Shown here: positions 3,308 to 33,485 of the stretch, in pieces | How the letters are laid out: the number at the start of each line of letters is the position of its first letter | How positions within the stretch are numbered: the first letter of the stretch is position 1 | Assembly (NCBI GenBank): GCA_001792305.1 | Contig: MGGH01000023.1 | Span: 34,347-98,346, forward strand | Origin: Candidatus Woesebacteria bacterium RIFCSPHIGHO2_01_FULL_39_23 | GTDB taxonomy: Bacteria > Patescibacteriota > Microgenomatia > UBA8517 | Length of the DNA: 64,000 nt | Direction of reading: 5' to 3' | The notes under the pieces: model-generated | The model's database searches: none | What the model saw: only the letters and a program-made list of their open reading frames with translations | What the model was told of the DNA's origin: nothing | Translations under genes and position numbers: made by a program

Positions 3308-3376
3308 AAGTTAATCTATATTTATGAAATATAGAGTTTTGGGTAAAACCGGGTTCAAAGTTTCAGAAGTTGGGAT

Positions 3377-5899: not shown

Positions 5900-5905
5900 G
5901 GATAA

Positions 5906-6160
5906 TTATAATCTAATATTCTTTATATTTGAAACTGCCATCCATGAGGACATTGATCCAAATCCTGATTTGTTAATACTAAATGGTTTTACTTTTTGAG
6001 GATTTTTGAGAAAGACTAGAATGCAGCATTTTTTATCCTTTCGACCACTTTCTATAAGATTCCGGATAAAAAACTTTATTAAGGGCTTTTCAGTTGTATG
6101 TCGAAAATAAACTGGATATTGAGGCCTGTATATTAATTGCTTAAATGGAAAAAGAACATG
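5906..6160 (-). pseudogene. Orphan 3'-terminal fragment paralogous to the ASCH-like gene at 8964..9395, with no start codon
   Basis: The reverse-strand frame is open from the stop at 6163-6161 down to the stop at 5908-5906 without any ATG. It encodes ...KDKKCCILVFLKNPQKVKPFSINKSGFGSMSSWMAVSNIKNIRL*, versus the intact gene's ...KDKKCCILVFLKNPQKVKPFSINKSGFGAMAAWLTVNNINKIKI*. Confidence 0.6.
5964..6040. repeat. Copy 1 of a perfect 77-bp direct repeat (cctgatttgttaatactaaatgg...gcagcattttttatcctt)
   Basis: Identical to 9022..9098 by direct comparison. The flanks show only partial similarity. Confidence 0.9.
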
Positions 6161-6283
6161 TCAAAGATATTTTTTCTTACGATCTAGGATTTGATAAGCT
6201 ATCTGGTATAAACAAGATTGATCCATGATTTTTTTAACAGTTGGCAATTTATTGGTGGCAAATGATGGGCGAATCGGTTCTAA

Positions 6284-7270
6284 TTAATTAGTATTTTTGA
6301 ATAAATCGGGGTTAATTTTCCAATCAGGAGTTGCGTAGTTATCTCCCCAAACCCCTTCACTGTCAACAGAGTTGAAGTAAAAAATAGTCTTTAAAAGTGG
6401 GTATTTTTTACTGCTATTTATTGCGTCAAATAACCAATTTTTCTGGAAATCTTGGTTACCTGTTACACCAAACTCCGCTATTATCACAGATTTATCATAA
6501 TCTTTCACCATGTTGTATCTGTCAGCGAAAATATTATCGAAACTTCTAGCTTTTCCATAATTGTCTATGTCCCACTGGGGATATTCGAAAACTGATAAAC
6601 CAATAAGATCGACGTAATTCCCTCCAGGCCAATAATTGTTGGCGTTAGTATGGCCAACCGGTGACCAAACGAAATAATTTTTCGAATCTATTTGTCTGCA
6701 ACGGTTTACAAAATACCGATATGAAGCGATGTAACTTTCACTATCCTCTTTTGCCCAAGGATACCTTCCTGTCACATTTTCCATTTCGTGACCCCAGCGG
6801 ATAAATACAGGATTTAGTGAGTCTTTGAAATCTAAGCAGACAGCATCAGTAGCTTCATCGTAACTTCCTTTTAGAATATCTTCAAATAAGGTACTAGTTT
6901 GATCAACAGAGCCATCAAAAGTAAACGGCTCCACAGTTACCATAGTCCATCTGTTATTTTTACTTGCCTCATTGAAAAAATTATCTAATTCCCCTTTTTC
7001 GTATTCGTTCCATTTAATAAATTCGTGCACGATTGATATTGTATTGACGGAATCGAAATTGCCGTTCGGGTCATAAACACCGAAATTGATTTTTATGTTT
7101 TTCCAGTCTATGTTGCAGTTCCTTTTTAAAAATTCGAACGGTGAATTACAAAGAATAGATTTATAACCCCAGGTAATACCATTTATTGCGTCGGACCCCC
7201 TAGTAATAATAGCGGATATGGGGAATAAAAAAACTAATAAACTAAAAGTAATAAATAAGTATTTTTTCAT
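6284..7270 (-). CDS. Secreted clan GH-A glycoside hydrolase, GH26-like (beta-mannanase/endo-glycanase type)
   Basis: Signal peptide (MKKYLFITFSLLVFLFPISAI). IRWGHEMEN matches the GH26 acid/base region (R..HEMN), and IIAEFGV is a nucleophile-Glu strand. Overlaps the upstream GT2 gene by 4 nt. Confidence 0.55.
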   Translation of the reverse strand: MKKYLFITFSLLVFLFPISAIITRGSDAINGITWGYKSILCNSPFEFLKRNCNIDWKNIKINFGVYDPNGNFDSVNTISIVHEFIKWNEYEKGELDNFFNEASKNNRWTMVTVEPFTFDGSVDQTSTLFEDILKGSYDEATDAVCLDFKDSLNPVFIRWGHEMENVTGRYPWAKEDSESYIASYRYFVNRCRQIDSKNYFVWSPVGHTNANNYWPGGNYVDLIGLSVFEYPQWDIDNYGKARSFDNIFADRYNMVKDYDKSVIIAEFGVTGNQDFQKNWLFDAINSSKKYPLLKTIFYFNSVDSEGVWGDNYATPDWKINPDLFKNTN

Positions 7271-8853
7271 AATCTGGATTTACGACTAAAAGATTTATTT
7301 TCATTAAAGTGATTTTTTATGATCATAAAGATAGAAATTGTGTAAGTAATAATATTTAATATTACAAAGTACAAATATCCAGAAACCATAGGAGAACCTT
7401 TTGCATATAAGGAAATATATGACAAAAAGATAATAACCAGGTAAGGTGTTAACATGCCTATTTTTAAAGGGCGATTACCAATTTCACCCTTTGAAGTTAC
7501 TTTAAAAGAAACGTCTTTTCTTGAAATACATACAATAATTCCAGAAAGAACACCAAGTAGCACCCAAGGCCATCTAATTAGTTGAAAAACAAACGTTTCC
7601 CACGAGATAAATTTTGAATTGGATGGTCTAAGCCATCCCCTATTTTTGATCCAAATTATTATGCTAAGTGTAATAATGGAAAGGATCCATGTGTAAAAAC
7701 TGAAAGCGATGTAGGTCACATTGACCCATGGCTTGTTTGTAACCAAAGCAATTATAGGTAGGCTGTACGCAAAAACTATTGTTGTAGAAAACAGAGGATA
7801 CCATAATTCAGAGAACAGAAATTGCAGTTTAAAGCGCGAAGGTAGATTTTTAAGGTATTTAGGAGTTACTGTCAGCAATATTATAATTAGACTCCTGGTC
7901 CATTGGAATTCTTGAAACATACTATCTGTAAAACTTTCTGCTCCGTCACCGTGGGCAATTGCATCTGTTGCGTGGATTCCACGCCACTTGTTCGCGTTCA
8001 TCATAAGTGTTGTTGTATGGTCTTCAGCCAATTCAGGCCCCAAACCTCCAATTTCTTTTAAAGCTTTTGTGCGCACGGCGTAGTGCGACCCGATGCAAAG
8101 AGGTGCCCAGCCGGCATTATACCCAGACTGTAGGGGTCCGTGCAGGGTGGCTTCAGCATATAGCCTTGCCCTTGCTGCCCAGCTTTTCTTTGCATTTGCG
8201 TCGCAAATGCTTGGAGCAGATACATATCCTACTGCCGGGTCTGCAAACGGTCTTAGCATCTCTTCTAAATAACCGGCTTCCGGTACGTGGTCGGCATCCA
8301 TTTGGATTACGAATTCGTAGCGGTAATAGCCGTAATTATCGTAAAAGTAGGCAAGATTGCCTTCTTTGCATTTTGTTTTTCTTGGCCACTTTGGGCGATG
8401 ATATTCTACAGCCCCCTTTCTGGTTGAAACAAAAACTCCATTTCGCTTGCACCACTGGTAGACTTCTTCTGTCGGGTCTTCGTCTGCAAGCCAGGTATCG
8501 TGTGCGTATTTCTGGGAAAGCATAGCTGAAAGCGTCTTTTTGACAACTTCAAAAGGTTCGGATGGGGCTTTTGTAACAACCATGGCTACCAATAGCCCTT
8601 TGGGTATAGGTAGTTTGGGATTGGGTTTTTTCATTTTGGCCACAAAGAAGAAAAAATATGCAGGCATCATCATATTCCAGGCAATCAAGGTGCTGTTTAA
8701 CACAAATCCCAGTCTTCCTACAACATGGCTTTCGTCCAGCCACCATATCCAAAAAACAGCTGCGAAGATAAGCCACAGTGCAAATAAAACGTTAAAGAAT
8801 ACCTTTTGTCTTTGTGTCATTATATCGACCAGATATGGGATACTAATATTCAT
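7267..8853 (-). CDS. Processive family-2 glycosyltransferase, cellulose-synthase-like (BcsA/Csl-type), integral membrane
   Basis: N-terminal TM helices, then LADEDP (D,D), KEGNLAYF (KAG-like), QMDADH (DxD), GPELAEDH (TED-like), QEFQWTRS (Q..RW-like), and about 6 C-terminal TM helices. Confidence 0.6.
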   Translation of the reverse strand: MNISIPYLVDIMTQRQKVFFNVLFALWLIFAAVFWIWWLDESHVVGRLGFVLNSTLIAWNMMMPAYFFFFVAKMKKPNPKLPIPKGLLVAMVVTKAPSEPFEVVKKTLSAMLSQKYAHDTWLADEDPTEEVYQWCKRNGVFVSTRKGAVEYHRPKWPRKTKCKEGNLAYFYDNYGYYRYEFVIQMDADHVPEAGYLEEMLRPFADPAVGYVSAPSICDANAKKSWAARARLYAEATLHGPLQSGYNAGWAPLCIGSHYAVRTKALKEIGGLGPELAEDHTTTLMMNANKWRGIHATDAIAHGDGAESFTDSMFQEFQWTRSLIIILLTVTPKYLKNLPSRFKLQFLFSELWYPLFSTTIVFAYSLPIIALVTNKPWVNVTYIAFSFYTWILSIITLSIIIWIKNRGWLRPSNSKFISWETFVFQLIRWPWVLLGVLSGIIVCISRKDVSFKVTSKGEIGNRPLKIGMLTPYLVIIFLSYISLYAKGSPMVSGYLYFVILNIITYTISIFMIIKNHFNENKSFSRKSRL

Positions 8854-8963
8854 AGAGAAGCAAGAATTATAGAGTATTTAGGGAAACTAAGTCAATCGTG
8901 ATAAGTTGATGCTTATCGATTATACGGTGCTACGTTTAGAATATATTTAAGACTATGTTTGGA

Positions 8964-9395
8964 TCATATCTTAATTTTGTTGATGTTGTTGACTGTAAGC
9001 CACGCAGCCATTGCGCCGAAGCCTGATTTGTTAATACTAAATGGTTTTACTTTTTGAGGATTTTTGAGAAAGACTAGAATGCAGCATTTTTTATCCTTAA
9101 ATAATTTGTAGTAATAATCAATCTTATTTTTCTCAATTCCGTCTGGTCTGTGGAATTTGTTTAATAATTCTTCTACTCTTCGCGGATTTAATTTATCAAA
9201 TTGTAAAACTTTGGATACCTTCGCTTTTACAACAATAAGTTCCCCGGAGTTTTTGAAATAAACAGTGTCACTTGCCTTTACTTTGTCCCAAGGAGCAGAC
9301 TTGTTCTTAAGCCAGCGAGACTCGATATTTTTTGTACCATTGAGGATTTTGGGAATGAGGCCCCAAGATTTTTTCATTATTGCCAGATGATCCAT
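8964..9395 (-). CDS. ASCH/PUA-like domain protein
   Basis: 143 aa. MKKSWGLIPKILNGTKNIESRW...DTVYF...GELIVVKAKV resembles ASCH-domain proteins. The last ~45 codons contain repeat copy 2. Confidence 0.4.
   Translation of the reverse strand: MDHLAIMKKSWGLIPKILNGTKNIESRWLKNKSAPWDKVKASDTVYFKNSGELIVVKAKVSKVLQFDKLNPRRVEELLNKFHRPDGIEKNKIDYYYKLFKDKKCCILVFLKNPQKVKPFSINKSGFGAMAAWLTVNNINKIKI
9022..9098. repeat. Copy 2 of the perfect 77-bp direct repeat
   Basis: Identical to 5964..6040. Lies inside the 3' end of the ASCH-like CDS. Confidence 0.9.
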
Positions 9396-9446
9396 GTTTT
9401 ATGATATGTTTTTCCGAGTGAAAAATGAATTCCCCTATAAAATTAC

Positions 9447-10178
9447 TCAAATTAAATCGACATTCATGGCTATAGCCAAAGGTGAAGCGTTCATTATATA
9501 TTTATACCCTGACAAATAATGTGTAAGTTTTTCATCGTCTAAAGACATTTTGCCGCCGTAAGATGGATCCAATACAACCAACCGATGTTTAGGTTCTCTT
9601 ATTAGAGTTATAAAGTGGTCAGTATGTTCCGCATAACCTAAGTAAAAGTAGTCTCCACGAATCGCCAATGGGCCGACTGTTTGGGTATGATTAACTATCC
9701 AATCTACAGTTAATGGTTGGTACACTAATTCGATTTGTCTTTCTTCATTGTATGATCTAGTCAAGTTATGTTGCGTCCTTGTGTCTGTGTAAAAAGTTAA
9801 TCTCGTGTTTGGGAAATGTCGAACGAAGGTTGCAGCAACCTTAAGCGGATAGTAACCTGGATATACACCGTAGGACTCCATGTAAAGTTCTCTTTGAAGG
9901 CGTTCGAGATCAAAGGGTGTTCTGGTTAAATCGCGTAGCATCATTAAAAGGCAAGCGTTACCACACGTTAAGGCATCTCTTTGATGGTGCACCTCAAAAA
10001 AGCCCTTCCTTTCCTTCATTTCATTTAATCCTCCAATATTTAATTTGACCAAAATAAATGCATAAAGAAAATAAAATTGTAACGAAAAGAGTTGTAAATT
10101 CAGTAAAGAAATAGCCAATATCGACAAGTTCCCCATTTCCTGAGATTCTAAGTGTGAACCCAATGATATAGTTGACAA
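9447..10178 (-). CDS. Standalone peptidase C39-like (papain-fold cysteine peptidase) domain protein. Start uncertain: either the upstream TM-containing start at 10178 or the internal Met at 10019.
   Basis: HHQRDALTCGNACLLMM fits the C39 Q..DCG.ACL active-site pattern, and HTDHFITL supplies the His. No ABC transporter domain is attached. Confidence 0.5.
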   Translation of the reverse strand: MSTISLGSHLESQEMGNLSILAISLLNLQLFSLQFYFLYAFILVKLNIGGLNEMKERKGFFEVHHQRDALTCGNACLLMMLRDLTRTPFDLERLQRELYMESYGVYPGYYPLKVAATFVRHFPNTRLTFYTDTRTQHNLTRSYNEERQIELVYQPLTVDWIVNHTQTVGPLAIRGDYFYLGYAEHTDHFITLIREPKHRLVVLDPSYGGKMSLDDEKLTHYLSGYKYIMNASPLAIAMNVDLI

Positions 10179-10381
10179 GAGGAAAGATGAAGATGGCTAG
10201 TTTCCTTAAGTTCAGGCTGAAATCCTTTGCGAAAGACCTGATCAAAAAGACTGATGCGAAAAGGATTATTATCTCGACAAAAATTGCTTTGGACATAACA
10301 AATTTTCCTTTCTGGTTGGTTAGTGTAGCATTTAAAAAATTTATTATCTTTTAAAAATTTAAGCGTGGTAGAATTGAGCTT

Positions 10382-13324
10382 ATGAGTGAGCAGAAGAAGC
10401 TTAATAAGGAGCAAAAGGAAACCGTGGAGTTTGGGAGTGGGCCGCTTTTGATAATCGCAGGAGCGGGTACGGGGAAAACAACTGTCATAACTGAAAGAAT
10501 AAAGCATTTGATATCTTCCGAACTAGCAAAACCCCAAGAGATTCTTGCGTTAACTTTCACTGAAAAAGCCGCGCGGGAAATGGAAACCAGAGTTGATGAA
10601 ATTATGCCTTATGGTTATACGCAAATGTGGATCATGACGTTCCACTCCTTTTGCGATCGGGTCTTGCGAACTGAGGCACTTCATATTGGTCTTGACCCGA
10701 GGTACAAGTTAATGACAGAAGCAGACGCAACGGCTTTAGTCCGGAAGAGCTTGTTTAAATTTGATCTTGACTATTTCAGACCTTTAGGGAATCCGACGAA
10801 ATTTATTAGCGGAATATTACAACACTTCTCTCGATTGCAAGATGAAGACATATCGCCCGCGGAATATTTCCGCTGGGCTCAAAATCACAACTCCCGCCTT
10901 CGCCGAAGTTACGGCGGGCAAGCAAAACTTAAATCTGAAAATAGTGAAGAAATAAAGAAATGGAAAGAATTAGCTGGGGCGTACAGAACTTATGACGAGG
11001 TCAAAGTTAAAGAAAACGTCATGGATTTTGGGGATTTGATAACAAAGACATTAAAACTTTTCAGAGATAGGCCAAATGTATTGAAAGAATATAGAGAAAA
11101 GTTTAAGTATATTTTGGTAGACGAGTACCAGGATACAAACTTTGCCCAAAACGAACTGGTAAAACTTCTTGCGGGTAAGAAGGGAAATGTAACCGTCGTC
11201 GCAGATGATGACCAAAGTATCTATAGGTTTCGCGGGGCCGCTATTTCAAACATAGTCCAGTTTCGAAAAAGTTTTCCCAAAACCCGTGTTATCACTTTAA
11301 TCCAGAACTACCGCTCTACCCAGGAAATTTTGGATAAAGCATATCAATTGATTCAGAATAACAACCCCGATAGATTGGAAGTTGTAGAAAAAGTTGACAA
11401 GAAGCTTGTTTCGCAAGTCGCCAAAGACGGAGAGTCTATTAAATTTATACATGAAGTTAGGGTTGAAAACGAAGCGGAAGCAGTAGCTAAGGAAGTTACT
11501 AAGTTACTAAGTTACAAAGATATTAAGTATCAGTACAAAGATTTTGCGATGCTAGTCCGCGCAAACAACCATGCAGAGCCGTTTATTAGAGCTTTTCAAA
11601 GACACTTAATTCCCTATCAGTTTTTAGGGCCGGGAAGACTTTTTAGACAAAGTGAGATAGTTGATCTTATTTCGTACTTGCGAGTTTTATATAATTTTGA
11701 GGATTCGGTATCCCTCTATAGAGTGTTGTCTATCGAATATTTTGACATTTCGGCTCGTGATTTAGCAAAAATCGGTAACTTTGCGAAGAGATATAACCTT
11801 TCAATGTTTGAGGCATGCGAGAAAATCGACGAATTATTTGTGACAGACGAGACAAAAGAAAAAATAAAAAATATGGTCGGCTTGGTGAATAAACATTTAA
11901 AGCTGGTTCGAAAGGAAACTGCGGGTCAAATCTTGTATTATTTCCTGCGAGATACTGGACTTATTGAAAAGCTGGTAAATCCCAATTCAGCCGAGGCACA
12001 AAAAGAAGCTCTAAACATTTCAAAATTTTTCGATAAATTAAAATCTTATGAAGTAGATCATGAGGATGCGACTGTTACAACTGTCGTTGATTGGCTCGAT
12101 TTGTCTACAGAACTTGGGGAATCGCCGTTGGCGGCTGATAGTGACTGGACAGATATAAATGCGGTTAATATTTTAACTGTACATTCCAGCAAAGGCTTGG
12201 AGTTTCCGGTTGTTTTTTTGGTCAATTTGGTTGGTCAACGATTCCCATCAACGGAGCGAAGCGAGCAAATTCCGATTCCTGAGGATCTTATAAAAGAGAT
12301 TTTGCCGCAAGGTGATTTTCACCTAGAGGAAGAAAGAAGATTGTTTTACGTTGGGATGACCAGAGCCAGGGAAAGGCTTTATTTTACTGCTAGTGATTAT
12401 TATGGAGAGGGTAAACGGGAAAAAAAGCTCAGTCCTTTTATTTTCGAGACGCTTGGAGACGAAGTAATTGCCAGTGAACAGTCAACTATGGGGACCCAGC
12501 AGTTGTCTTTTTTGGACTATCAATCCGTGAAGCAGATTACTGATGCCCGGCAACCGACAACCAAGCTACATGTTGATTATTTGTCCTACAGCCAAATAGA
12601 AACTTTTAGGGTATGCCCCTTGCATTATAAGCTGGGTTATATACTGCGAATTCCGACTCCCCCCTCCGCTTCACAAAGTTTTGGGACATCAATTCACTCG
12701 GCATTAAAGAAATTTTATGATGGGGTCAAAAATGGTGAAAGTCCGACCGAAAAATATATTTTGTCACTTCTAGATAGTAATTGGGTCAAAGAAGGGTATA
12801 CAAGTCGCGATCATGAAAGGAAATTTTTGGAGAAAGGTAAAGATTATTTGAAAGGGTACTTAAATGTAGAGTTTAATCCGAAAGTAATACCTTCGCTTTT
12901 GGAACAGAGATTTACCATTCCGTTATCTAAAGAAGGCGAACGGCCGTTAAAAATGGGCGGAGTAATTGACCGTATTGATGAAGCCTATGACGGCTCAATT
13001 GAAATAATTGACTATAAAACCGGTGCCAATATCCCTTCGCAACCAGAGATTGATAAAAACCTGCAGATGACCTTTTACGCTTTAGCTTCAACAATGATAC
13101 GCGAGCAACCTTTCAACAAAGGCCCGCAGGAGGTAGTTTTGTCTTTGTATTTTTTGGACAACCAACAAAAAATTTCAACCAAAAGGACAAAGGAACAACT
13201 TGAGGAAGCAGTAAAAGAAATTTTTAAAGTACGTCGCCAAATTGAGGAGTCTGATTTTTCTTGCTCCGGCCACATGTTTTGCAAAAACTGCGAATACAAA
13301 TTAATGTGCAATGTGGATAGCTAA
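10382..13324 (+). CDS. UvrD/PcrA-type SF1 helicase fused to a C-terminal PD-(D/E)xK nuclease with a 4-Cys cluster (AddAB/Cas4-like)
   Basis: Walker A AGAGTGKTTV, helicase motifs TFTEKAAREM and VDEYQDTN. C-terminal EIIDYKTG (nuclease motif) and CSGHMFCKNCEYKLMC (Cys cluster). Confidence 0.8.
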   Translation: MSEQKKLNKEQKETVEFGSGPLLIIAGAGTGKTTVITERIKHLISSELAKPQEILALTFTEKAAREMETRVDEIMPYGYTQMWIMTFHSFCDRVLRTEALHIGLDPRYKLMTEADATALVRKSLFKFDLDYFRPLGNPTKFISGILQHFSRLQDEDISPAEYFRWAQNHNSRLRRSYGGQAKLKSENSEEIKKWKELAGAYRTYDEVKVKENVMDFGDLITKTLKLFRDRPNVLKEYREKFKYILVDEYQDTNFAQNELVKLLAGKKGNVTVVADDDQSIYRFRGAAISNIVQFRKSFPKTRVITLIQNYRSTQEILDKAYQLIQNNNPDRLEVVEKVDKKLVSQVAKDGESIKFIHEVRVENEAEAVAKEVTKLLSYKDIKYQYKDFAMLVRANNHAEPFIRAFQRHLIPYQFLGPGRLFRQSEIVDLISYLRVLYNFEDSVSLYRVLSIEYFDISARDLAKIGNFAKRYNLSMFEACEKIDELFVTDETKEKIKNMVGLVNKHLKLVRKETAGQILYYFLRDTGLIEKLVNPNSAEAQKEALNISKFFDKLKSYEVDHEDATVTTVVDWLDLSTELGESPLAADSDWTDINAVNILTVHSSKGLEFPVVFLVNLVGQRFPSTERSEQIPIPEDLIKEILPQGDFHLEEERRLFYVGMTRARERLYFTASDYYGEGKREKKLSPFIFETLGDEVIASEQSTMGTQQLSFLDYQSVKQITDARQPTTKLHVDYLSYSQIETFRVCPLHYKLGYILRIPTPPSASQSFGTSIHSALKKFYDGVKNGESPTEKYILSLLDSNWVKEGYTSRDHERKFLEKGKDYLKGYLNVEFNPKVIPSLLEQRFTIPLSKEGERPLKMGGVIDRIDEAYDGSIEIIDYKTGANIPSQPEIDKNLQMTFYALASTMIREQPFNKGPQEVVLSLYFLDNQQKISTKRTKEQLEEAVKEIFKVRRQIEESDFSCSGHMFCKNCEYKLMCNVDS

Positions 13325-13893
13325 AGAAGTCTACGTGGAAGGAAATAAATATAGATGGCACTTGAGAAGCACAAGCACGCCATAAGTATGAAGAGTGCAT
13401 TAAAACCAAAAAGCGTTACAACTGTTCCTCCAATTATTGCGCCAAAAGACATACTAAAATAATTAATCGATTCCCAAGCACCCCACTGCCTTCCCGCCCT
13501 ATCCACGCTTAAATGTTTAGAATAAACAGCATCGAAGGAGGGGCTATAAAAAGCTTCTGCTGAACCAATTAACGCCTGGATCAACGACAGAAATATAACA
13601 GAATTTACTTGTGTAAAAAGCAAATACCCCAACCCTATTACTGCGTATCCCGCTGCGACGATCAGCTCATTTTGTTTAATTTTGTCTGCAAATTTTCCTG
13701 CGACTATGGTTGTAATACCTGCTGCAAAAGCAAACGCACCCCCCGTAAGGCTGGCATCCAATAAACTTCCACCAACTTTGTCAACGAACAATGCATAAAT
13801 TGGGGCAAGCATGGCACCTGAAATTAAAATGAACGCATTTGTCCCAAGCATGATCTTTAAAGCTTTATTAAGATGAATATTAAAATTTGGCAT
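13321..13893 (-). CDS. MFS-like 6-TM protein (half-size; possible truncated transporter)
   Basis: 190 aa with 6 predicted TM helices and a motif-A-like loop (GKFADKIKQNEL). There is no partner half within 162 bp upstream. Confidence 0.4.
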   Translation of the reverse strand: MPNFNIHLNKALKIMLGTNAFILISGAMLAPIYALFVDKVGGSLLDASLTGGAFAFAAGITTIVAGKFADKIKQNELIVAAGYAVIGLGYLLFTQVNSVIFLSLIQALIGSAEAFYSPSFDAVYSKHLSVDRAGRQWGAWESINYFSMSFGAIIGGTVVTLFGFNALFILMACLCFSSAIYIYFLPRRLL

Positions 13894-14055
13894 TAATTAA
13901 TAAATTCTACTATTTATTTTGCTGAATTTGGGTGCCGATTATATATGTTTTTGTGATTTGAGTTTAGATGCGATCCGACTTACAGCAATGGGAAACCCAT
14001 TATTCTGTCCGCATCGCGATAAGGATTTTCATTGGTTAATTTCATTTTGACATTC

Positions 14056-14730
14056 TTACTTCAAGAGCTCTTTTAAAGCGTCTTTGGCAATCCAGTTGGC
14101 AGTTTTGTTGTCCATCTTTTGGATTTCTCGGGCGAGTATAATTACCGTCTTTTTAAGATTTTGATTTCTTTTACCTATTTGCCTGAGGGCCCAATTGACT
14201 GCCTTTTTAACAAAATTTCTTTTGTCTTTCGAAGCGTTTTTAATAAGAGGGAGGAATTTTAGGAATTTTTTATCAGCTGCGTTTTTGTCATGCCAGGCAA
14301 GACAAGCCATTAACGCAAAACCTGCTCTTTTTTCAAATTCTTTGTGTTTTTTTGACCATTCTGCGGCCTTATCAAATGCAAAGGGAGTTTTGTCAAATAA
14401 GTTCATGCAAATCTGGTCGCACAGGTCCCAGGAGTTAAATTCTTTTATCCAACTATCCATCTGTTTTTGGGTGACAAGTTCAGGCACATCAATCATCGAT
14501 GCTAAGATTCTCACTTCGTGGATTTTGCTACCCCACAGTTTACTAGCCAGTTTGTGTTTTTCTTGCGACTTATTTTTAAGCTCTTTTTCGATATCCGCAG
14601 CGAGCTTTCTCAATACGGGAACATTTACTCCGAGTGCATACTTTGGATTTATCCCGAATCTCGCCATCCCTTCAACATTTTTGGGGTTTGATAACAATTT
14701 AAGTTTCTTGATGACTTTTTCGATATCCAT
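14056..14730 (-). CDS. DNA alkylation repair enzyme (AlkC/AlkD-like HEAT-repeat glycosylase family)
   Basis: MDIEKVIKKLKLLSNPKNVEGMARFGINPKYALGVNVPVLRKLA is typical of the DNA alkylation repair family. Confidence 0.65.
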   Translation of the reverse strand: MDIEKVIKKLKLLSNPKNVEGMARFGINPKYALGVNVPVLRKLAADIEKELKNKSQEKHKLASKLWGSKIHEVRILASMIDVPELVTQKQMDSWIKEFNSWDLCDQICMNLFDKTPFAFDKAAEWSKKHKEFEKRAGFALMACLAWHDKNAADKKFLKFLPLIKNASKDKRNFVKKAVNWALRQIGKRNQNLKKTVIILAREIQKMDNKTANWIAKDALKELLK

Positions 14731-14765
14731 CTCTATCAGTCTATGCCCACTACTAAGTTATTTTA

Positions 14766-15503
14766 TCAATATTCGATAAATTCTAAAATTTCCCTCGCCA
14801 ATCTTTTCGGATACTTTACTGGAATACTGTGGTTACAGGCAAATGAGATAATTTTCGCGTTTTGGAAATGTTTATAAAGCTCTGTGCCATGAGTTCTGAC
14901 AATTGCCTGATCTTTGGTTCCATAGGCAATTAGGGTTTTATTGATTATGCTCTGTGTTTCTTCTGGCCAATTATGAGCCAAAAGGTCTTTGCAACAGAGT
15001 GCAACCGACTTCGCGTCGCTGTTTTTTAGAAACCCTGGATCCATAGGTATTAGATTTTTGATAACCGTTTTAAGATATTGGTGGTTAGAGTTTAGTATTT
15101 TTTTAATCACACGGTCGACAAAATAAAAGTTGACACCGAGCCAGATTAAAAACTTATAAGAAAGTGGAGACCCTGATTTTGGGTTTCGTAAGGGTACCGA
15201 GATAATGATTAACTTTTCCACTTCTTTTGGGAATCTTATGGTGTATTCCAGGGAGATATAACCGCCAAGCGAATGCCCTACCAAAATAAATGGGGGTTTA
15301 ATATTTATCTTTTTAAGCTGATCTTTAAGATAATTTGGATAGGTCTCAAAATTTAAAGGAACACTGTTGTAATAAGTTCCGTATGGATCTATATCTATTG
15401 CATGACAACTGTATTTATTTTTAGGCAAGGATTGAATTAACTTGTCCCAAAGTTGTTTTGTATAGCCTAAACCGGGAATAAAGACGATTGTTTGTTTTTG
15501 CAT
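14766..15503 (-). CDS. Alpha/beta-hydrolase fold protein
   Basis: Nucleophile elbow ILVGHSLGG. Confidence 0.7.
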   Translation of the reverse strand: MQKQTIVFIPGLGYTKQLWDKLIQSLPKNKYSCHAIDIDPYGTYYNSVPLNFETYPNYLKDQLKKINIKPPFILVGHSLGGYISLEYTIRFPKEVEKLIIISVPLRNPKSGSPLSYKFLIWLGVNFYFVDRVIKKILNSNHQYLKTVIKNLIPMDPGFLKNSDAKSVALCCKDLLAHNWPEETQSIINKTLIAYGTKDQAIVRTHGTELYKHFQNAKIISFACNHSIPVKYPKRLAREILEFIEY

Positions 15504-15506
15504 TAC

Positions 15507-16328
15507 CTAAAATGGTAACAGAAATTTAGAATAGGCGCCGGGATATTCAACTTCTAAACCCCCAAAACTTTTTTTGAAGCGGGAGAAACCGAGCCACGAT
15601 TTTAGAGGGAATCTATCGTCGTAAACACCTTCAAAATCAAAAACCTTGCACTTTAGTTTCTTTGCCAATCTTATCACTTCCCAAGTAACCAAGGTTGGGG
15701 CGAATAGTTTTTTCCCTTCCGGAGTTGCGGCAGCATACATATAGTAGGCGACATAACCTGTTTCAGGCATTAAAATTCCGGCGAGAAGTTTGTTGTCTTT
15801 ATAAGCCAATAAAAGGTGTGAATTTTTTCCAAAAGCGTTGTGTATGGCGTGTATTGATTTGCCGAGTTTTAAAAACTTTCTACTTGGTTGCGCATTTAGC
15901 CAAAGGTCTACGAATCTTTCTATATCTTTTGATTTTTTGACTACTACACCCCTTTTTAGTGCAACTTTTATATTGTATCTGGTTTTATAATGCATTTCTT
16001 TTAGTACCTCTTTTTCCGATTTTGTTAAATCAATGTGAACTGTTTTACTTGGTAAATAAGGAGATTTAGTTAGTTTAAATCCATGCTTTATAAGTGGTTT
16101 ACCCTGAGCGAGGTCGAAGGGTTCTATGACAATTTGAAAGGCTCTATATTTTTTCACAACGCGGTTTATTTGATTAAAGTCGGTTATTTTAGGTCTTTGG
16201 ATTTTGACAAATGATCCGATTACTGGAAGCCTTTTTATAAAGTAATTTACACCACCAACTCTTTCCACGATCCAGCCAATACTTTTCATATATTTTGCAT
16301 ATTCCTTGGTTTGTCGAAGATCAGTCAT
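15507..16328 (-). CDS. FemAB-family peptidoglycan cross-bridge peptidyltransferase-like (GNAT fold)
   Basis: Paralog of 17027..17995: KTRYNIKVALKRGVVVK here versus KTRYNIRLAQKHGVKVIE there. The FemAB-like architecture is common in CPR genomes. Confidence 0.55.
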   Translation of the reverse strand: MTDLRQTKEYAKYMKSIGWIVERVGGVNYFIKRLPVIGSFVKIQRPKITDFNQINRVVKKYRAFQIVIEPFDLAQGKPLIKHGFKLTKSPYLPSKTVHIDLTKSEKEVLKEMHYKTRYNIKVALKRGVVVKKSKDIERFVDLWLNAQPSRKFLKLGKSIHAIHNAFGKNSHLLLAYKDNKLLAGILMPETGYVAYYMYAAATPEGKKLFAPTLVTWEVIRLAKKLKCKVFDFEGVYDDRFPLKSWLGFSRFKKSFGGLEVEYPGAYSKFLLPF

Positions 16329-16345
16329 AATTTAAAAGTCAGCGA

Positions 16346-17023
16346 TTAGTGACTTGTGGTTAGTATTTCTTTGATTATCTCAAAGGTTTCTGGTGAGTTT
16401 ATAATATTCAAGTGGCCTGCAACGTCGATTTTAACGTTCTTCGCCCCTTTGAGGACTAAACTACTATTCGGAATGACAACTTCGTCAAGTCTAGGATAAA
16501 GGTTTGTAAACATTTTATTTACTCTAACCTTTCGGTCAAGATTTTTTATAAGCTTTGAAGAAGGGACAATTTCACCAAGGTTAAATATATTTACATAGCC
16601 TGAATAAGTTCCCTTATAGGGAGAGGAAATGCTAATTACTTTGGAAACGCGGTTTGAATACTTCGAATTTATCAGAAAATATTTAGTTATAACACCACCT
16701 TTGCTATGACTTATTATAAGAGAGTCTTTAATTGCATTTTCGTTAATATAGTTTTCAAGTATTTCCGAGCATTTTTTAATTTTGGCGGTGTTATTTCCTA
16801 ACTTTTTTAGAACATGCACCCTGTATCCAAGACCATTAATAAAATTTCCTATTTTGATTAGGTATGACCAGGTTCCACCAAAACCTTGTACTAAAATGAC
16901 ATTGCCTTCCTTTCCATAAGACCATTTTTCTGGTGGTGTTCGAATAATAAAATTACTAAGTTTTGCAATTGGGTGAGTTAGAATATCCAAAATTATTTCC
17001 AAGGTGGTTTTTAAAATTCTCAT
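16346..17023 (-). CDS. Lipase-like alpha/beta hydrolase (DUF676/PGAP1-like)
   Basis: GxSxG elbow ISHSKGG. About 225 aa. Confidence 0.5.
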   Translation of the reverse strand: MRILKTTLEIILDILTHPIAKLSNFIIRTPPEKWSYGKEGNVILVQGFGGTWSYLIKIGNFINGLGYRVHVLKKLGNNTAKIKKCSEILENYINENAIKDSLIISHSKGGVITKYFLINSKYSNRVSKVISISSPYKGTYSGYVNIFNLGEIVPSSKLIKNLDRKVRVNKMFTNLYPRLDEVVIPNSSLVLKGAKNVKIDVAGHLNIINSPETFEIIKEILTTSH

Positions 17024-17026
17024 AGT

Positions 17027-17995
17027 TTATAAAGAAGTCTTAGTAAGACTAAACTTAGCTTTAGTTCTTAAAACTAGCCAACGGATTTTTTCAGCAATTC
17101 TATAAAGATGATAAAGGGGGTGTGCTACTAAATCCCAACTTCCTAAAAACTCAATAACCTGTGGGTTATATCCCTCTTTAAATTTTGTAAATCCCTTTCC
17201 AGGCTCCCTTCCCCAAAGGTCAAAAATCTTATAACCCCGGCGCTTGCCAAATCTAATTGCCTCCCACATCATAAGGTTATTTGTCATGACATTTTTGTAT
17301 TTGTCGGAACTGGCACCGTATGGGTAGTAAAGAATTTTGTCGTAGGTAAACAAAATCCAGGTTGTGATAATTTCACTTTTATATTTAGCAACCAGAAGAT
17401 GAGCTAGGGGTGATCGGTGTTCGGTGATCGGTGTTCGGTGAAGGTGCTTCCACATAAGGCGGTGATATTCTGGTGTGTGAGCATAAAAACCTTGTCTTTT
17501 AGCTGTCTCAAAAGTCAGTTCCAAATATTTTTCAAATGCTTTATTTGAGTTATCCTCAATCACTTTTACTCCGTGTTTTTGGGCAAGACGGATGTTGTAG
17601 CGGGTTTTACCGGAAAAACTTTTCAGGAGTTCGTCTTCTGGTTTTGTTAAGTCGATTCGGAAAGTTGTAGGAGTAAATAAAGTTTTACCAGGGACAGCGT
17701 TGTTTTTTTTGAATAAATGAATTATTGAATTATTGACCTCACTTTTTATAATATTTGGTTCCAATTTTATAAATATTAGATTTTTTTCTTTAGCAATCTT
17801 TTTTAGAAAAACAAGCATTTCTTGTGTTGGTTTTGGCCCTTTGATAAACATGCCAATTTTCCATGGCGTAAAAGGGATTTTATGAAGAGTAATTACGCCA
17901 TATTTGGTTTCCAAAACCTCATTTCCCCATTCTTGTCGAAACTGCGCCCACTCGTGAGATTGTAAGGGGTGTTTTGGCTCTCTTGTTTTTACCAT
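17027..17995 (-). CDS. FemAB-family peptidyltransferase-like protein
   Basis: Homologous to 15507..16328. The N-terminus is MVKTREPKHPLQSHEWAQFRQEWG. Confidence 0.55.
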   Translation of the reverse strand: MVKTREPKHPLQSHEWAQFRQEWGNEVLETKYGVITLHKIPFTPWKIGMFIKGPKPTQEMLVFLKKIAKEKNLIFIKLEPNIIKSEVNNSIIHLFKKNNAVPGKTLFTPTTFRIDLTKPEDELLKSFSGKTRYNIRLAQKHGVKVIEDNSNKAFEKYLELTFETAKRQGFYAHTPEYHRLMWKHLHRTPITEHRSPLAHLLVAKYKSEIITTWILFTYDKILYYPYGASSDKYKNVMTNNLMMWEAIRFGKRRGYKIFDLWGREPGKGFTKFKEGYNPQVIEFLGSWDLVAHPLYHLYRIAEKIRWLVLRTKAKFSLTKTSL

Positions 17996-18409
17996 TTAAA
18001 CAACCTCGATATATTTTGGATAATTAAAAGTTACTTTAAAGTGGTCGAAGAATCCGTTATTTCCTAAAACGTCGAAGGAGTTTTGTGGTATTTCTTTTGA
18101 AAAAATAACGTTGGTTTCATACTCCTTTCCCGCAACTCCAAATAAAATTTTAAGTTGGTAACCTTTTATTTCCTTTCCTCCAATACCTCTTATTTTCCTT
18201 TTTTTACCTGTTGAGAGCTTAATTCCCAGATATGAAGTTACCAGTTCTTCAAATAGGCAATAGTCTGCTCCTGAATCTACTATTGCTTGATATCCCACAA
18301 TTCTCTTTTTGTTAAGTAGAATTACAGGAATCACTGGCCTGTAGATTATTTTTTTTCTGGGTGTGGCAGGTGAGGGAGTAACTTCAAATTCTTGATATTG
18401 ATATTTCAT
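17996..18409 (-). CDS. Retropepsin-like (clan AA) aspartic protease, single-domain
   Basis: Catalytic triad motif IVDSGADY plus flap motif RGIGGKEIKGY. 137 aa. Its stop abuts the FemAB start, and its start overlaps the upstream small ORF. Confidence 0.75.
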   Translation of the reverse strand: MKYQYQEFEVTPSPATPRKKIIYRPVIPVILLNKKRIVGYQAIVDSGADYCLFEELVTSYLGIKLSTGKKRKIRGIGGKEIKGYQLKILFGVAGKEYETNVIFSKEIPQNSFDVLGNNGFFDHFKVTFNYPKYIEVV

Positions 18410-18633
18410 TATGCATGAAGATTGTACCCAACATATGGCAATGATTCTTTGGGTATCTTCATTAAATAGGGTATTTTTGTGCCGGATTTTGTGGCTTTTT
18501 CTGCTGCCTCTTTTAGCGTTTTCCCCACACCAGCGACAGTAACAAGATCTTCTTTAAATGCGACCCATTTTCCGGGGTATTTCCTCTGAACCTCAACTCT
18601 ACTGATCGGTTTCATATTTTTATTATACACCAA
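18409..18633 (-). CDS. Small protein partner of the retropepsin. The likely true start is the ATG at 18615, giving 68 aa (the track starts at a TTG). It resembles the ~70-aa DUF5678-like family recalled from memory; unverified.
   Basis: MKPISRVEVQRKYPGKWVAFKEDLVTVAGVGKTLKEAAEKATKSGTKIPYLMKIP, i.e. the pattern GKWVA..D..V.AG.TL.EA.EKA.K.G. It overlaps the protease gene by 1 nt. Confidence 0.55.
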   Translation of the reverse strand: MVYNKNMKPISRVEVQRKYPGKWVAFKEDLVTVAGVGKTLKEAAEKATKSGTKIPYLMKIPKESLPYVGYNLHA

Positions 18634-18721
18634 CTAAAACTCCACACTTTCCCCACCCCCTTCGAAACTCCGCCCACTCGTGAGATTGAAGTGGATGAGT
18701 TGATGATTCGGTTGATTCCAT
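18632..18721 (-). pseudogene. Duplicated 5' fragment of a FemAB-family gene: start codon plus 31 codons, then a stop
   Basis: Reverse strand from the ATG at 18721-18719 encodes MESTESSTHPLQSHEWAEFRRGWGKCGVLVGV*. The intact gene at 17995 encodes MVKTREPKHPLQSHEWAQFRQEWGNEVL. DNA identity is 26/27 between 18662-18688 and 17936-17962. Confidence 0.65.
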
Positions 18722-33345: not shown

Positions 33346-33485
33346 ACTCTAGATCTCAATATAACACATGGTAGATCAGGAAATATACTCTTCTTACTCG
33401 AGTTTACAACTCTCGTAAGAGATTATGATCCCCAATTTTACTATTATTAACTTCAAGTTAAGGTAAAATTGGTATAAATGAAGAG

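What the first reader, a model, noticed from the sequence alone, without database searches (positions are those of the whole stretch)
5906..18721. Recurring architecture: two unrelated two-gene cassettes, each flanked by a duplicated terminal fragment of the adjacent host gene
Within 13 kb, two accessory cassettes (GH26-like plus GT2; retropepsin plus small protein) are each bounded by a short duplicated piece of the neighbouring gene's end. In one case the 3' end is duplicated with a perfect 77-bp core. In the other the 5' end is duplicated with about 90% identity. Both cassettes have tightly abutting or overlapping gene boundaries. This looks like a common cassette-shuffling mechanism targeting gene termini rather than random rearrangement.
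Basis: inference. Interest (0 to 1): 0.55.

Follow-up and report, generated by a model that had tools for sequence, protein, structure and literature searches.

The report
Displaced gene-end relics beside strain-variable gene pairs
In a tiny-genome groundwater bacterium (Woesebacteria), two optional gene pairs each sit next to a leftover fragment of the neighbouring gene's end; these look like scars of ordinary recombination with related DNA rather than the work of a dedicated cassette-moving machine, and one scar's 77-bp perfect repeat now lets the gene pair drop out cleanly in some strains.

Summary
A 135-nt copy of the ASCH gene's 3' end (77-bp perfect core plus an in-frame but 60%-identical tail) lies 3,058 bp downstream of the intact gene, beyond GT2+GH26. 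A 99-nt copy of the FemAB gene's 5' end (its own ATG, about 25 homologous codons) lies upstream of DUF5678+retropepsin. More than 20 independent assemblies reproduce both, so they are not artefacts.

Both gene pairs vary between strains. Three contigs equal the window minus exactly 3,058 bp. One 97%-identical strain lacks the DUF5678/retropepsin pair.

Both relics are displaced ends of diverged alleles, not fresh target duplications. I found no recombinase in the window and no motif shared by the repeats. Other copies of the DUF5678-retropepsin pair have no relics, and about 45 related loci with other insertions in the same gaps have none either. A third example, a BrnT/BrnA pair between two copies of an aldo/keto-reductase 5' relic, occurs in the sister species.

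Best reading: homology-anchored plus illegitimate recombination (HFIR, "end displacement" as in rhs and T6SS loci) in an accessory-gene hotspot, with selection keeping flanking expression signals. The 77-bp repeat then mediates deletion. Modest interest.

The parts
5402..5899 (-). NUDIX hydrolase gene, the conserved downstream partner of ASCH
   Evidence: Pfam NUDIX E=1e-16. ASCH-NUDIX abut or overlap in L021, in L173 and in the empty-site contigs.
5906..6040 (-). Relic A: the displaced 3' end of an ASCH gene. It comprises the 77-bp core (5964-6040) plus tail A (5906-5963) and has no head. It reads KDKK...FGSMSSWMAVSNIKNIRL*.
   Evidence: Homology of relic+NUDIX to L021 ASCH+NUDIX starts exactly at 6040. 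Tail A has 7 of 18 residues that are rare in the family.
5905..5933 (-). Promoter-like site (TTCAAA-17-TATAAT, 10/12) inside tail A, ending 6 nt before the NUDIX ATG
   Evidence: This is a consensus match only. The total number of sites in the region is not above the shuffle expectation.
6041..6283 (-). Spacer sp2 between the GH26 stop and the relic. Its origin is unknown.
   Evidence: No homology in L021. There is a weak, non-significant match to the retropepsin family N-terminus.
6284..7270 (-). GH26-like glycoside hydrolase (328 aa)
   Evidence: Pfam Glyco_hydro_26 E=3e-6. It is paired with GT2 in 58 of 80 metagenome loci.
7267..8853 (-). GT2 / cellulose-synthase-like glycosyltransferase (528 aa)
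   Evidence: Pfam and NCBIfam hits. It is broken into two ORFs in strain L010/L159.
8854..8963 (-). Spacer 'sp' between the ASCH stop and GT2. It carries the best promoter-like site of the region (8866-8895, TTGACT-18-TATAAT, 11/12).
   Evidence: Only the last 18 nt before the GT2 ATG are homologous to L021.
8964..9395 (-). Intact ASCH-domain gene (143 aa) with core 9022-9098 and tail B 8964-9021
   Evidence: 750 homologs at about 60-65% identity in Patescibacteria, some of them named ASCH. All tail B residues are typical of the family.
9447..10019 (-). C39-peptidase-like gene (190 aa as called by others; the ORF runs on to 10178). It is absent from L021.
10021..10296 (-). 91-aa membrane protein. 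Its ortholog in L021 lies between GH26 and ASCH.
   Evidence: 75% aa identity, E=1e-49.
17027..17995 (-). FemAB-family gene (322 aa). Its first ~237 nt (about 17758-17995) are a different allele from the empty-site strain (about 75% identity); the next stretch is about 97.5% identical.
17996..18409 (-). Retropepsin-like aspartic protease (137 aa). Its stop abuts the FemAB ATG.
   Evidence: Weak Pfam hits. The family has 13 clusters with a conserved DSG motif. It is always preceded by DUF5678.
18409..18615 (-). DUF5678 small protein (68 aa from the ATG at 18615). A TATAAT box conserved with L063 lies at 18616-18631.
18623..18721 (-). Relic D: the displaced 5' end of a FemAB allele (MESTESSTHPLQSHEWAEFRRGWGKCGVLVGV*). 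FemAB homology ends at about 18634.
   Evidence: It is 90% identical to the L006 FemAB 5' end.
18799..19497 (+). hyp232, an accessory gene of unknown function on the opposite strand that borders relic D
   Evidence: It is absent from the UvrD-FemAB gap in about 30 species. A 239-aa gene of unknown function occupies the same position and orientation in L063; homology was not tested.
3324..3389 (+). A third relic of the same kind: a 21-codon remnant of an aldo/keto reductase 5' end, just upstream of the aldehyde dehydrogenase gene
   Evidence: It is duplicated around BrnT/BrnA in L021, and the intact AKR gene is present in L043.

Best explanation
The two structures are independent scars of general recombination in a strain-variable accessory-gene hotspot of a Woesebacteria (CPR) genome. 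They are not products of a dedicated cassette system.

How each relic arose (inferred):
- DNA from a related lineage recombined using the conserved neighbouring gene (FemAB or ASCH) as a homologous anchor.
- The other end joined illegitimately inside the resident copy of that same gene.
- The incoming DNA supplied a complete gene end. The resident gene end was pushed to the far side of the gene pair and survives as a relic.
- This is HFIR-type 'end displacement'.

Why the relics persist (inferred):
- They carry the start or upstream signals of the next gene. Relic D keeps the FemAB operon's ATG. Tail A holds a promoter-like site for NUDIX.

Locus 1 in particular:
- The relic is old. Its tail drifted under relaxed constraint.
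- Its 77-bp core was recently made identical to the working copy. The mechanism is inferred; gene conversion is the simplest.
- That perfect direct repeat now supports precise RecA-type deletion of the 3,058-bp GT2-GH26 unit. This gives the observed empty-site strains, whose ASCH gene carries the old tail.

Locus 2 in particular:
- The repeats are only 78% identical, and no such deletion variants are seen.
For: Shown:
- Both repeats and both relic reading frames, reproduced in many assemblies.
- Conserved backbone RmuC|HEL980|Fem273|Fem322|UvrD|LytR in about 30 species, with different accessory genes in the same gaps.
- Locus 2 empty site in L006. Relic D is 90% identical to L006's FemAB 5' end, against about 80% for the working copy. 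The window/L006 FemAB identity jumps from about 75% to about 97.5% after nt ~237.
- The boundary of the incoming segment lies between 18631 and 18634. It is marked by DUF5678 upstream sequence shared with L063.
- Locus 1 empty site equals the window minus exactly 3,058 bp in three samples.
- These contigs carry 0-3 SNPs on at least two haplotypes and are nested within cassette-bearing diversity.
- ASCH-NUDIX is a conserved abutting pair in L021 and L173.
- The core is 77/77 identical between the copies but only 52/77 identical to L021. The tails are 35/58 identical to each other.
- Versus L021's tail, tail A shows 18 nt and 10 aa changes, while tail B shows 15 nt and 4 aa changes. Tail A occurs in no other of 120 homologs except the deletion-type protein.
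- Mosaic short patches separate strains.
- No deletion variants at locus 2 among 23 contigs.

From the literature:
- HFIR and end-displacement models (PMC5361080; PMC2935791).
- Competence and homologous recombination genes are widespread in Patescibacteria (PMC12455944; PMC10633639).
Against: - No donor genome with ASCH-GT2-GH26 or with DUF5678-retropepsin abutting FemAB was found, so microhomology at the illegitimate junctions could not be checked.
- The origin of the perfect 77-bp core needs an extra step (gene conversion, or donor and recipient identical there).
- L006's relic differs from the window's at about 16 of 51 positions, although the flanking DNA is 92-100% identical. No simple history explains this.
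- The direction of the locus 1 polymorphism (deletion or insertion) is inferred from nestedness and tail drift. It is not proven.
- Three relic-flanked pairs within one ~20-kb region of two sister species is more than relatives show elsewhere. Only one comparable case was found in 716 kb of related loci.
- Only 64 kb of this genome was examined for recombinases.
Confidence: 0.6

Rival explanations
1. Reverse direction at locus 1. The empty site (ASCH with tail A directly followed by NUDIX) is the older state in this species. The 3,058-bp unit [core-tail B-GT2-GH26-sp2] entered as a circle by a single homologous (Campbell-type) crossover in the 77-bp core, as proposed for rhs tips. It can excise again.
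For: - ASCH-NUDIX is the conserved arrangement elsewhere.
- A perfect repeat that equals the insert boundary is the direct product of a single crossover.
- Tail B resembles the sister species' tail, as expected if it came from a relative.
- The rhs model invokes this same mechanism.
Against: - The empty-site contigs are a small minority: 3 contigs against 43-45 collection blocks carrying the cassette-type ASCH/NUDIX proteins.
- They lie on at least two haplotypes nested inside cassette-bearing diversity.
- The 3%-diverged strain L006 has the same sp2|core junction.
- Tail A is atypical at conserved positions and is unique to this relic, as expected for a long-untranslated sequence.
- A circle with a core identical to the recipient's presupposes the structure it is meant to explain.
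Confidence: 0.2
2. Purely intragenomic rearrangement with no foreign DNA. A segmental duplication of the [91aa-ASCH] block, or a transposition of GT2-GH26, within an L021-like ancestor was followed by partial deletion of one copy. At locus 2, a local duplication of the FemAB 5' end occurred.
For: - The sister species has the same genes in the order GT2-GH26-91aa-ASCH-NUDIX, so the window differs by a block interchange.
- GT2-GH26 divergence from L021 equals backbone divergence.
Against: - The tails are 60% identical, as diverged as the two species, while the core is 100% identical. A single duplication cannot give both.
- Spacers sp and sp2 have no counterpart in L021.
- At locus 2, the working 5' end and the relic are different alleles, and the cassette is absent from about 30 species at that site.
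Confidence: 0.1
3. One reading: a dedicated cassette-shuffling system that targets gene termini (an integrase acting in trans, integron-like or DGR-like). The repeats would be its attachment sites.
For: - Three relic-flanked two-gene units occur in one small region of two sister species.
- The excision-like empty site is precise.
- Integrase-borne islands are known to restore target-gene ends (own knowledge).
Against: - No recombinase or reverse transcriptase was found among the window's recognisable proteins.
- The repeats share no motif.
- Repeat lengths and identities differ widely: 77 bp perfect, 55 nt at 78%, 53 nt at 85%.
- The relics are diverged alleles rather than identical attachment sites.
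- The mismatches involve all base types, unlike the true DGR in L022.
- Other DUF5678-retropepsin copies, and other insertions in the same gaps, lack relics.
Confidence: 0.06
4. Assembly or binning artefact: a chimeric join at a k-mer-sized repeat (77 is a SPAdes k value).
For: The perfect repeat is exactly 77 bp.
Against: - The identical structure appears in MEGAHIT k141, JGI and Logan assemblies from many samples. At k=141 the k-mer is longer than the repeat, so the repeat is spanned.
- The relic junction is also present in the diverged strain L006.
Confidence: 0.01

Closest known systems
Homology-facilitated illegitimate recombination (HFIR) during natural transformation (de Vries & Wackernagel 2002; Prudhomme et al. 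2002; Meier & Wackernagel 2003; as cited in PMC5361080)
   Same: - One end of the incoming DNA is anchored by homology in a conserved gene.
- The other end joins illegitimately nearby.
- Foreign genes are trapped next to the anchor.
- No element-encoded enzyme is needed.
- Locus 2 fits this well: a diverged 5' FemAB segment is contiguous with the cassette, followed by near-identity to the empty-site strain.
   Different: - The events are inferred from natural variants, not observed.
- The donor is unknown, so junction microhomology is unverified.
- Here the illegitimate joint fell inside the anchor gene itself, so a gene-end relic was kept.
- Locus 1 needs an extra homogenisation step.
C-terminal displacement and orphan tips in rhs, CDI and T6SS effector-immunity loci (Jackson et al. 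2009, PMC2935791; Kirchberger et al. 2017, PMC5361080)
   Same: - An intact gene with a new 3' tip, followed downstream by a displaced 'core fragment + old tip' that shares a conserved stretch with the main gene.
- Recombination between the repeated core stretches can delete or swap the intervening DNA.
- A circular intermediate has been proposed.
   Different: - ASCH is a small housekeeping-type protein, not a polymorphic toxin.
- The tip is only 18 residues, with no immunity partner.
- There is a single relic, not an array.
- Locus 2 and the L021 case involve 5' ends, not C-terminal tips.
Integrase-mediated genomic islands that integrate into a gene end and restore it (tRNA, tmRNA or dusA-type targets) - own knowledge
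   Same: An insert bounded by direct repeats made of a duplicated gene terminus, with a precise empty site.
   Different: - No integrase lies in or near the inserts.
- The repeats are diverged alleles, apart from the 77-bp core.
- The inserts are plain two-gene operons.
Deletion between short direct repeats by homologous recombination or slippage (general bacterial genetics) - own knowledge
   Same: The empty-site variants equal the removal of one repeat copy plus the interval. This occurs only at the perfect 77-bp repeat and not at the 78%-identical one.
   Different: Nothing unusual; this part is textbook.
Toxin-antitoxin-like mobile two-gene modules
   Same: - DUF5678-retropepsin and BrnT/BrnA are small, overlapping two-gene units.
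- They show a patchy distribution and varying neighbours, and sit in accessory hotspots.
   Different: - No toxin or antitoxin activity is known for DUF5678 or the retropepsin-like protein.
- There is no significant PADLOC hit.

Membership tests
HFIR / homology-anchored end displacement | A homologous anchor in a conserved gene, contiguous with the foreign segment | tested here: met
   Locus 2: the window and L006 FemAB are about 75% identical for nt 1-237 and about 97.5% after that, and the diverged part is contiguous with the cassette. Locus 1: the ASCH head and core are identical in cassette-bearing and empty-site strains.
HFIR / homology-anchored end displacement | An illegitimate joint at 3-10 bp of microhomology between donor and recipient | tested here: inconclusive
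   The junctions were located at 18631-18634 and at 6040/6041. No donor sequence is available for comparison.
HFIR / homology-anchored end displacement | The displaced recipient sequence is of the recipient (resident) allele type | tested here: met
   Relic D is 90% identical to the empty-site strain's FemAB 5' end, against about 80% for the working copy. Relic A plus NUDIX is collinear with L021 ASCH plus NUDIX from exactly position 6040.
HFIR / homology-anchored end displacement | A DNA uptake and RecA pathway is present in the organism | not tested
   Only literature for Patescibacteria in general (PMC12455944, PMC10633639). com and recA genes were not looked for in this genome.
rhs-type C-terminal displacement | A main gene followed by a dissociated 'core fragment + alternative tip' that shares a conserved stretch | tested here: met
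   The 77-bp core is shared and tails A and B are alternative tips.
rhs-type C-terminal displacement | A polymorphic toxin with a variable toxic tip and a cognate immunity gene | tested here: not met
   The gene is a 143-aa ASCH-domain protein with an 18-residue tail. The downstream genes are GT2/GH26 and NUDIX.
Integrase-mediated island in a gene end | A tyrosine or serine recombinase in or beside the element | tested here: not met
   No recombinase Pfam domain was found in any gene of the two inserts, or among the Pfam-annotated genes of the window. Several ORFs with no Pfam match remain. The rest of the genome was not examined.
Integrase-mediated island in a gene end | Identical attL/attR core, plus an empty site and a circular form | tested here: inconclusive
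   An identical core and an empty site exist at locus 1 only. At locus 2 the longest identical run is 18 nt. A circular form could not be searched for.
Integron cassette | An IntI integrase, attI and attC sites bounding the cassettes | tested here: not met
   No integrase (see above). The repeats are coding gene ends that share no motif. The inverted-repeat scan found no attC-like pairs at the insert boundaries.
Diversity-generating retroelement | A reverse transcriptase, and TR/VR pairs whose mismatches fall at TR adenines | tested here: not met
   Mismatches of all base types: 23 in repeat 1 and 12 in repeat 2. In the true DGR of L022, 11 of 12 are from adenines. No RT was found in the window.
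Type II toxin-antitoxin module (for DUF5678-retropepsin) | Two small co-oriented overlapping genes with a patchy distribution in varying contexts | tested here: met
   The pair is conserved in all contexts seen and overlaps by 1-17 nt. There are 13 clusters only, with at least three different neighbourhoods.
Type II toxin-antitoxin module (for DUF5678-retropepsin) | Demonstrated toxin activity that is neutralised by the partner | not testable with these tools
   No experimental data. The only paper containing the term 'DUF5678' is an unrelated plant study.

The most novel reading that the evidence does not exclude
In streamlined CPR genomes that largely lack classical mobile elements, homology-anchored end displacement could be the main route by which small accessory operons enter and leave conserved operons.
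- The displaced gene ends would be retained because they carry the promoters or starts of the next gene.
- Once homogenised, they would act as portable recombination handles. These would let units such as the 3,058-bp GT2-GH26 block excise as circles and re-enter other strains.
- The result would be an integrase-free, population-level cassette pool, as hypothesised for rhs tips.
- A weaker variant of this reading is that the faint retropepsin-like remnant in spacer sp2 links both loci to past DUF5678-retropepsin insertions.
Probability: 0.12. Interest if true: 0.55.

Novelty: new member of a known kind. Interest (0 to 1): 0.3.

Why it matters
- The locus documents, at nucleotide resolution and with natural "before/after" strains, how accessory genes are gained, repositioned and lost in an uncultivated CPR bacterium that has no visible mobile-element machinery here.
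- It shows that short gene-end relics can be read as markers of past recombination events.
- It shows that a perfect 77-bp relic makes a polysaccharide-synthesis gene pair unstable within natural populations.
- For annotation, it warns that such mini-ORFs and headless gene ends are scars, not new genes or attachment sites.
- It does not reveal a new molecular machine.

Tried and rejected
1. Assembly artefact at a 77-mer. Rejected, because the structure is reproduced by MEGAHIT k141, JGI and Logan assemblies.
2. Simple insertion of GT2-GH26 as foreign DNA. Rejected, because L021 has the pair nearby at backbone-level divergence, and the nearest other GH26 homologs are at most 51% identical.
3. 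DGR. Rejected on the mismatch spectrum and the absence of a reverse transcriptase. The only DGR found is in relative L022.
4. Integron or integrase. No recombinase domain was found and the repeats share no motif.
5. The DUF5678-retropepsin pair as a self-inserting element that duplicates 5' ends. Four other copies have no relic.
6. A retropepsin relic in spacer sp2. The profile hit is 6.6 bits and the pairwise score was reached by 3 of 500 shuffles. This is not significant after multiple testing and was left as unexplained.
7. A search for an intact FemAB allele with relic D's N-terminus. None was found among 120 homologs.
8. A search for a donor arrangement ASCH-GT2-GH26. None was found. P0002 has a convergent PIN-domain gene downstream of ASCH, and P0003 has NUDIX.
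9. P0137's apparent 5'-truncated FemAB. This was only a start-codon call.
10. Defence-system membership of the cassette genes. There are no significant PADLOC hits.
11. Further relics in the window. The only others are the aldo/keto-reductase 5' relic and a vapB 3' fragment.

Full report
WHAT IS THERE

The window comes from a Woesebacteria (Microgenomates, CPR/Patescibacteria) genome. The retropepsin-like protein is identical to a protein of Candidatus Woesebacteria bacterium RIFCSPLOWO2_01_FULL_39_21. The nearest species-level relative is RIFCSPHIGHO2_02_FULL_42_20 (locus L021), with 75% aa identity in the 980-aa helicase. All genes of interest are on the minus strand.

Locus 1, in transcription order:
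- a 91-aa membrane protein (10296-10021)
- a C39-like gene (10019-9447)
- an intact 143-aa ASCH-domain gene (9395-8964)
- a 110-nt spacer 'sp'
- GT2 (8853-7267), overlapping GH26 (7270-6284) by 4 nt
- a 243-nt spacer 'sp2'
- a headless copy of the last 44 codons of ASCH (6040-5906, 'relic A')
- 6 nt later, NUDIX (5899-5402)

The two ASCH 3' ends share an exact 77-bp core. Their 58-nt tails are only 35/58 identical, yet they keep the same frame, length and stop position: FGAMAAWLTVNNINKIKI* versus FGSMSSWMAVSNIKNIRL*.

Locus 2, in transcription order:
- a 32-codon ORF with its own ATG (18721-18623, 'relic D': MESTESSTHPLQSHEWAEFRRGWGK...), whose codons 8-25 match the FemAB N-terminus
- DUF5678 (ATG 18615)
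- a retropepsin-like gene (18409-17996)
- abutting it, the 322-aa FemAB gene (17995-17027)

The nucleotide repeat is 55 nt at 78% identity, with a longest identical run of 18 nt.

IS IT MORE THAN CHANCE OR ARTEFACT?

- In a scan of all 68 window proteins against all intergenic DNA, the two relics are the top hits (E=3e-25 and 4e-9).
- At nucleotide level they are the only direct-repeat self-matches in 64 kb.
- The 77-bp length equals a SPAdes k-mer, so I checked for an artefact. The complete architecture is present at 99.4-100% identity in more than 20 contigs from different samples and assemblers, including MEGAHIT with k=141, which spans the repeat.
The only correction is that repeat 2 is 78-85% identical, not about 90%.

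COMPARATIVE CONTEXT

I made one scan of species-representative genomes with the helicase that lies between the two loci, followed by tblastn with the window's proteins. About 30 Woesebacteria/Microgenomates share a backbone: RmuC | HEL980 | Fem273 | Fem322 | UvrD | LytR | PMT. The window carries accessory genes in every gap of that backbone. Other lineages carry different accessory genes in the same gaps:
- L063 has a gene of unknown function in hyp232's position, DUF5678-retropepsin, an inositol phosphatase and HicAB.
- L147 has an MBL-fold protein, a 96-aa protein and an ABC ATPase.

So this region is an accessory-gene hotspot.

LOCUS 1 IN DETAIL

Gene order in the sister species:
- L021 has the order GT2-GH26-91aa-ASCH-NUDIX. 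ASCH sits exactly where the window has only relic A.
- Nucleotide homology of the window's relic+NUDIX to L021's ASCH+NUDIX starts precisely at 6040.
- The window's 91-aa gene is the ortholog (75% aa) of L021's.

ASCH-NUDIX is the conserved arrangement:
- The two genes abut or overlap in L021 and in an unrelated CPR context, L173.
- Splitting of that pair in the window is therefore the derived state.

GT2-GH26 is not foreign to the clade:
- It is 73%/66% identical to L021's pair, like the backbone genes.
- It is a widespread functional pair, adjacent in 58 of 80 loci.

The decisive find was P0001:
- It is a full-length ASCH whose first 125 residues are identical to the window's. Its last 18 are identical to relic tail A.
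- Its three contigs, from three samples, equal the window minus exactly 3,058 bp, that is, one core copy plus the interval.
- ASCH(tail A) is directly followed by NUDIX.

Direction of the polymorphism (inferred):
- Apart from the tail, these contigs differ from the window by 0-3 SNPs.
- They lie on at least two haplotypes, and they are nested inside the diversity of cassette-bearing strains (10-133 SNPs).
- Tail A has 7 of 18 residues that are rare (≤11%) in the ASCH family. Tail B has none.
- Relative to L021's tail, tail A has 18 nt and 10 aa changes, while tail B has 15 nt and 4 aa.
- Tail A occurs in no other of 120 homologs.
- I infer that tail A evolved for a long time as untranslated relic. 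I also infer that the empty-site genes are recent, possibly recurrent, deletion products of recombination between the 77-bp repeats.
- The cassette appears dispensable. In one strain GT2 is broken into two ORFs.

The perfect core:
- The core is only 52/77 identical to L021, so its 77/77 identity between the copies (P<1e-13 at species-level divergence) must be a recent copying event, whereas the tails are ancient.
- Gene conversion from the working copy is the simplest explanation, but it is not proven.

An unexplained detail:
- In strain L006 the relic has the same sp2|core junction. It also has a 1-nt deletion and about 16 differences in 51 nt across the right half of the core and the start of the tail.
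- The flanking DNA is 92-100% identical. I cannot account for this with a simple history.
- L006 also shows other short diverged patches, so mosaic recombination is frequent in this population.

LOCUS 2 IN DETAIL

- In about 30 species, FemAB follows UvrD within about 100 nt.
- Strain L006 (97% identical overall) is an empty site. The hyp232 start and the FemAB ATG are 48 nt apart, with no DUF5678/retropepsin pair.
- L006's FemAB 5' end is 90% identical to relic D but only about 80% identical to the window's working 5' end.
- Along the gene, window/L006 identity is about 75% for nt 1-237 and about 97.5% thereafter.
- Relic D's FemAB homology ends at about 18634.
- From 18631 onward, the sequence upstream of DUF5678 (GTATAAT...ATGAAACC) is shared with the DUF5678 gene of L063.

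This is the pattern expected if a segment [DUF5678-retropepsin-FemAB 5' ~240-350 nt] from a related lineage replaced the resident codons ~30-80. One crossover would be homologous, inside FemAB. The other would be an illegitimate joint inside the resident FemAB 5' end. That is homology-facilitated illegitimate recombination.

All 23 contigs with the identical hyp232 carry the cassette. This fits repeats that are too diverged for efficient homologous deletion. It contrasts with locus 1.

DOES THE ARCHITECTURE RECUR?

Within the window there are two more scars.
- A 21-codon remnant of an aldo/keto reductase 5' end (3324-3389) lies just upstream of the aldehyde dehydrogenase gene.
- A 96-nt fragment of a vapB 3' end plus the vapB-vapC spacer lies at 33383-33478.

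In L021, the same aldo/keto-reductase relic is present twice (53 nt, 85% identical), flanking a BrnT/BrnA toxin-antitoxin pair. The intact reductase gene survives in L043 (Pfam E=2e-51). So a third 'two-gene unit between duplicated gene-end fragments' exists in the sister species.

Against a general mechanism:
- About 45 related loci with insertions in the same gaps have no second FemAB 5' end or ASCH 3' end.
- A self-comparison of 38 related loci (716 kb) found only the L021 case and a genuine DGR in L022.
- Four other copies of the DUF5678-retropepsin pair lack any relic of their downstream gene.
- The three repeat pairs share no motif beyond chance.
- No integrase, transposase or reverse transcriptase is recognisable in the window.

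MECHANISM

Shown:
- the structures
- the strain polymorphisms and their exact breakpoints
- the allelic relationships of the relics
- the hotspot context

Inferred:
1. The relics arose when homologous-but-diverged DNA integrated with one crossover in the conserved neighbour gene and one illegitimate joint within the resident copy of that gene (HFIR-type end displacement).
2. Relics persist because they hold expression signals.
   - Relic D keeps the operon's first ATG and ends 7 nt before the DUF5678 ATG.
   - The second-best promoter-like site of locus 1 lies inside tail A and ends 6 nt before the NUDIX ATG.
   - The best lies in 'sp', upstream of GT2. These are consensus matches only.
3. The 77-bp core was homogenised recently.
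4. It now mediates precise deletion.

The literature describes the same logic:
- HFIR and effector-immunity displacement in Vibrio cholerae (PMC5361080)
- rhs C-terminal displacement, with core-fragment-plus-tip units proposed to insert and excise by homologous recombination through a circle (PMC2935791)
- Patescibacteria are reported to have competence and homologous recombination genes (PMC12455944), and natural competence has been shown experimentally in Saccharibacteria (PMC10633639).

COMPARISON AND NOVELTY

- Functionally this works like HFIR and end displacement. It is not a member of the rhs, CDI or T6SS families, because there is no toxin or immunity pair.
- It is not an integrase island, an integron cassette or a DGR. 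Defining features of each were tested and not met.
- I rate it a new instance, in an uncultivated CPR lineage and at housekeeping-type genes, of a known kind of recombination scar.

What remains open:
- the exact origin of the perfect core
- L006's variant relic
- the source of spacers sp and sp2
- whether three such scars in one ~20-kb region of two sister species is just the signature of a very active hotspot

VERDICT

- Interest is modest (0.3).

Noticed in passing
window 3324-3389 (+); L021 2936-2998 and 3643-3705; L043 3655-4698: A 21-codon mini-ORF (MKYRVLGKTGFKVSEVGMWTQ*) upstream of the aldehyde dehydrogenase gene is a relic of an aldo/keto reductase 5' end. The sister species L021 has it twice, flanking a BrnT/BrnA toxin-antitoxin pair. 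The intact reductase gene is present in L043.
   Followed up: yes
window 33383-33478 vs 57977-58071 (inverted): A 96-nt, 83%-identical copy of the 3' end of a MazE/AbrB-like antitoxin gene plus the spacer to its PIN toxin gene. It lies between a pilus-like gene and rpsT. The second hairpin shows compensatory changes (CCAATTTTAC/GTAAAATTGG vs CCAAAAAT/ATTTTTGG), so it may be a structured element rather than mere debris.
   Followed up: partly
L022 1277-1382 (VR), 1781-1886 (TR), 1885-2232 (-), 2213-3217 (+): A diversity-generating retroelement in a related Microgenomates genome. 11 of 12 TR-to-VR mismatches are at TR adenines. An Avd-like gene and a reverse transcriptase (YADD motif) lie next to it.
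   Followed up: partly
window 6041-6283 (-), spacer sp2: In the frame that runs into the ASCH relic core it reads ...KQLIYRPQYPV...LIESG. This weakly resembles the retropepsin family N-terminus up to the catalytic DSG (6.6 bits; the pairwise score was reached by 3 of 500 shuffles). It is not significant after multiple testing.
   Followed up: partly
L006 12043-12148 (relic A of a 97%-identical strain) vs window 5935-6040: The same sp2|core junction, but with a 1-nt deletion and about 16 differences in 51 nt across the right half of the core and the start of the tail. The flanks are 92-100% identical. This third allele patch is unexplained.
   Followed up: partly
L010 / L159 (ERZ27254738), corresponding to window 7267-8853: In this strain the GT2 gene is split into 233-aa and 244-aa ORFs by point changes. 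This suggests the cassette is decaying in part of the population.
   Followed up: no
window about 11400-11600 (HEL980): A 21-nt indel polymorphism among strains (980 vs 987 aa helicase) in L006 and L008.
   Followed up: no
L050 3574-4652; L056 8241-9193: The HEL980 ortholog is interrupted after residue ~279 by about 1 kb in two relatives. This could be an intein, an intron or a homing-endonuclease insertion.
   Followed up: no
window 8001-8500: A GC content of 48.6% inside the GT2 gene, against about 37% for the surroundings.
   Followed up: no
L046 14084-14940: The Fem322 ortholog appears in three frame-shifted pieces, so it may be a pseudogene in an Amesbacteria genome.
   Followed up: no
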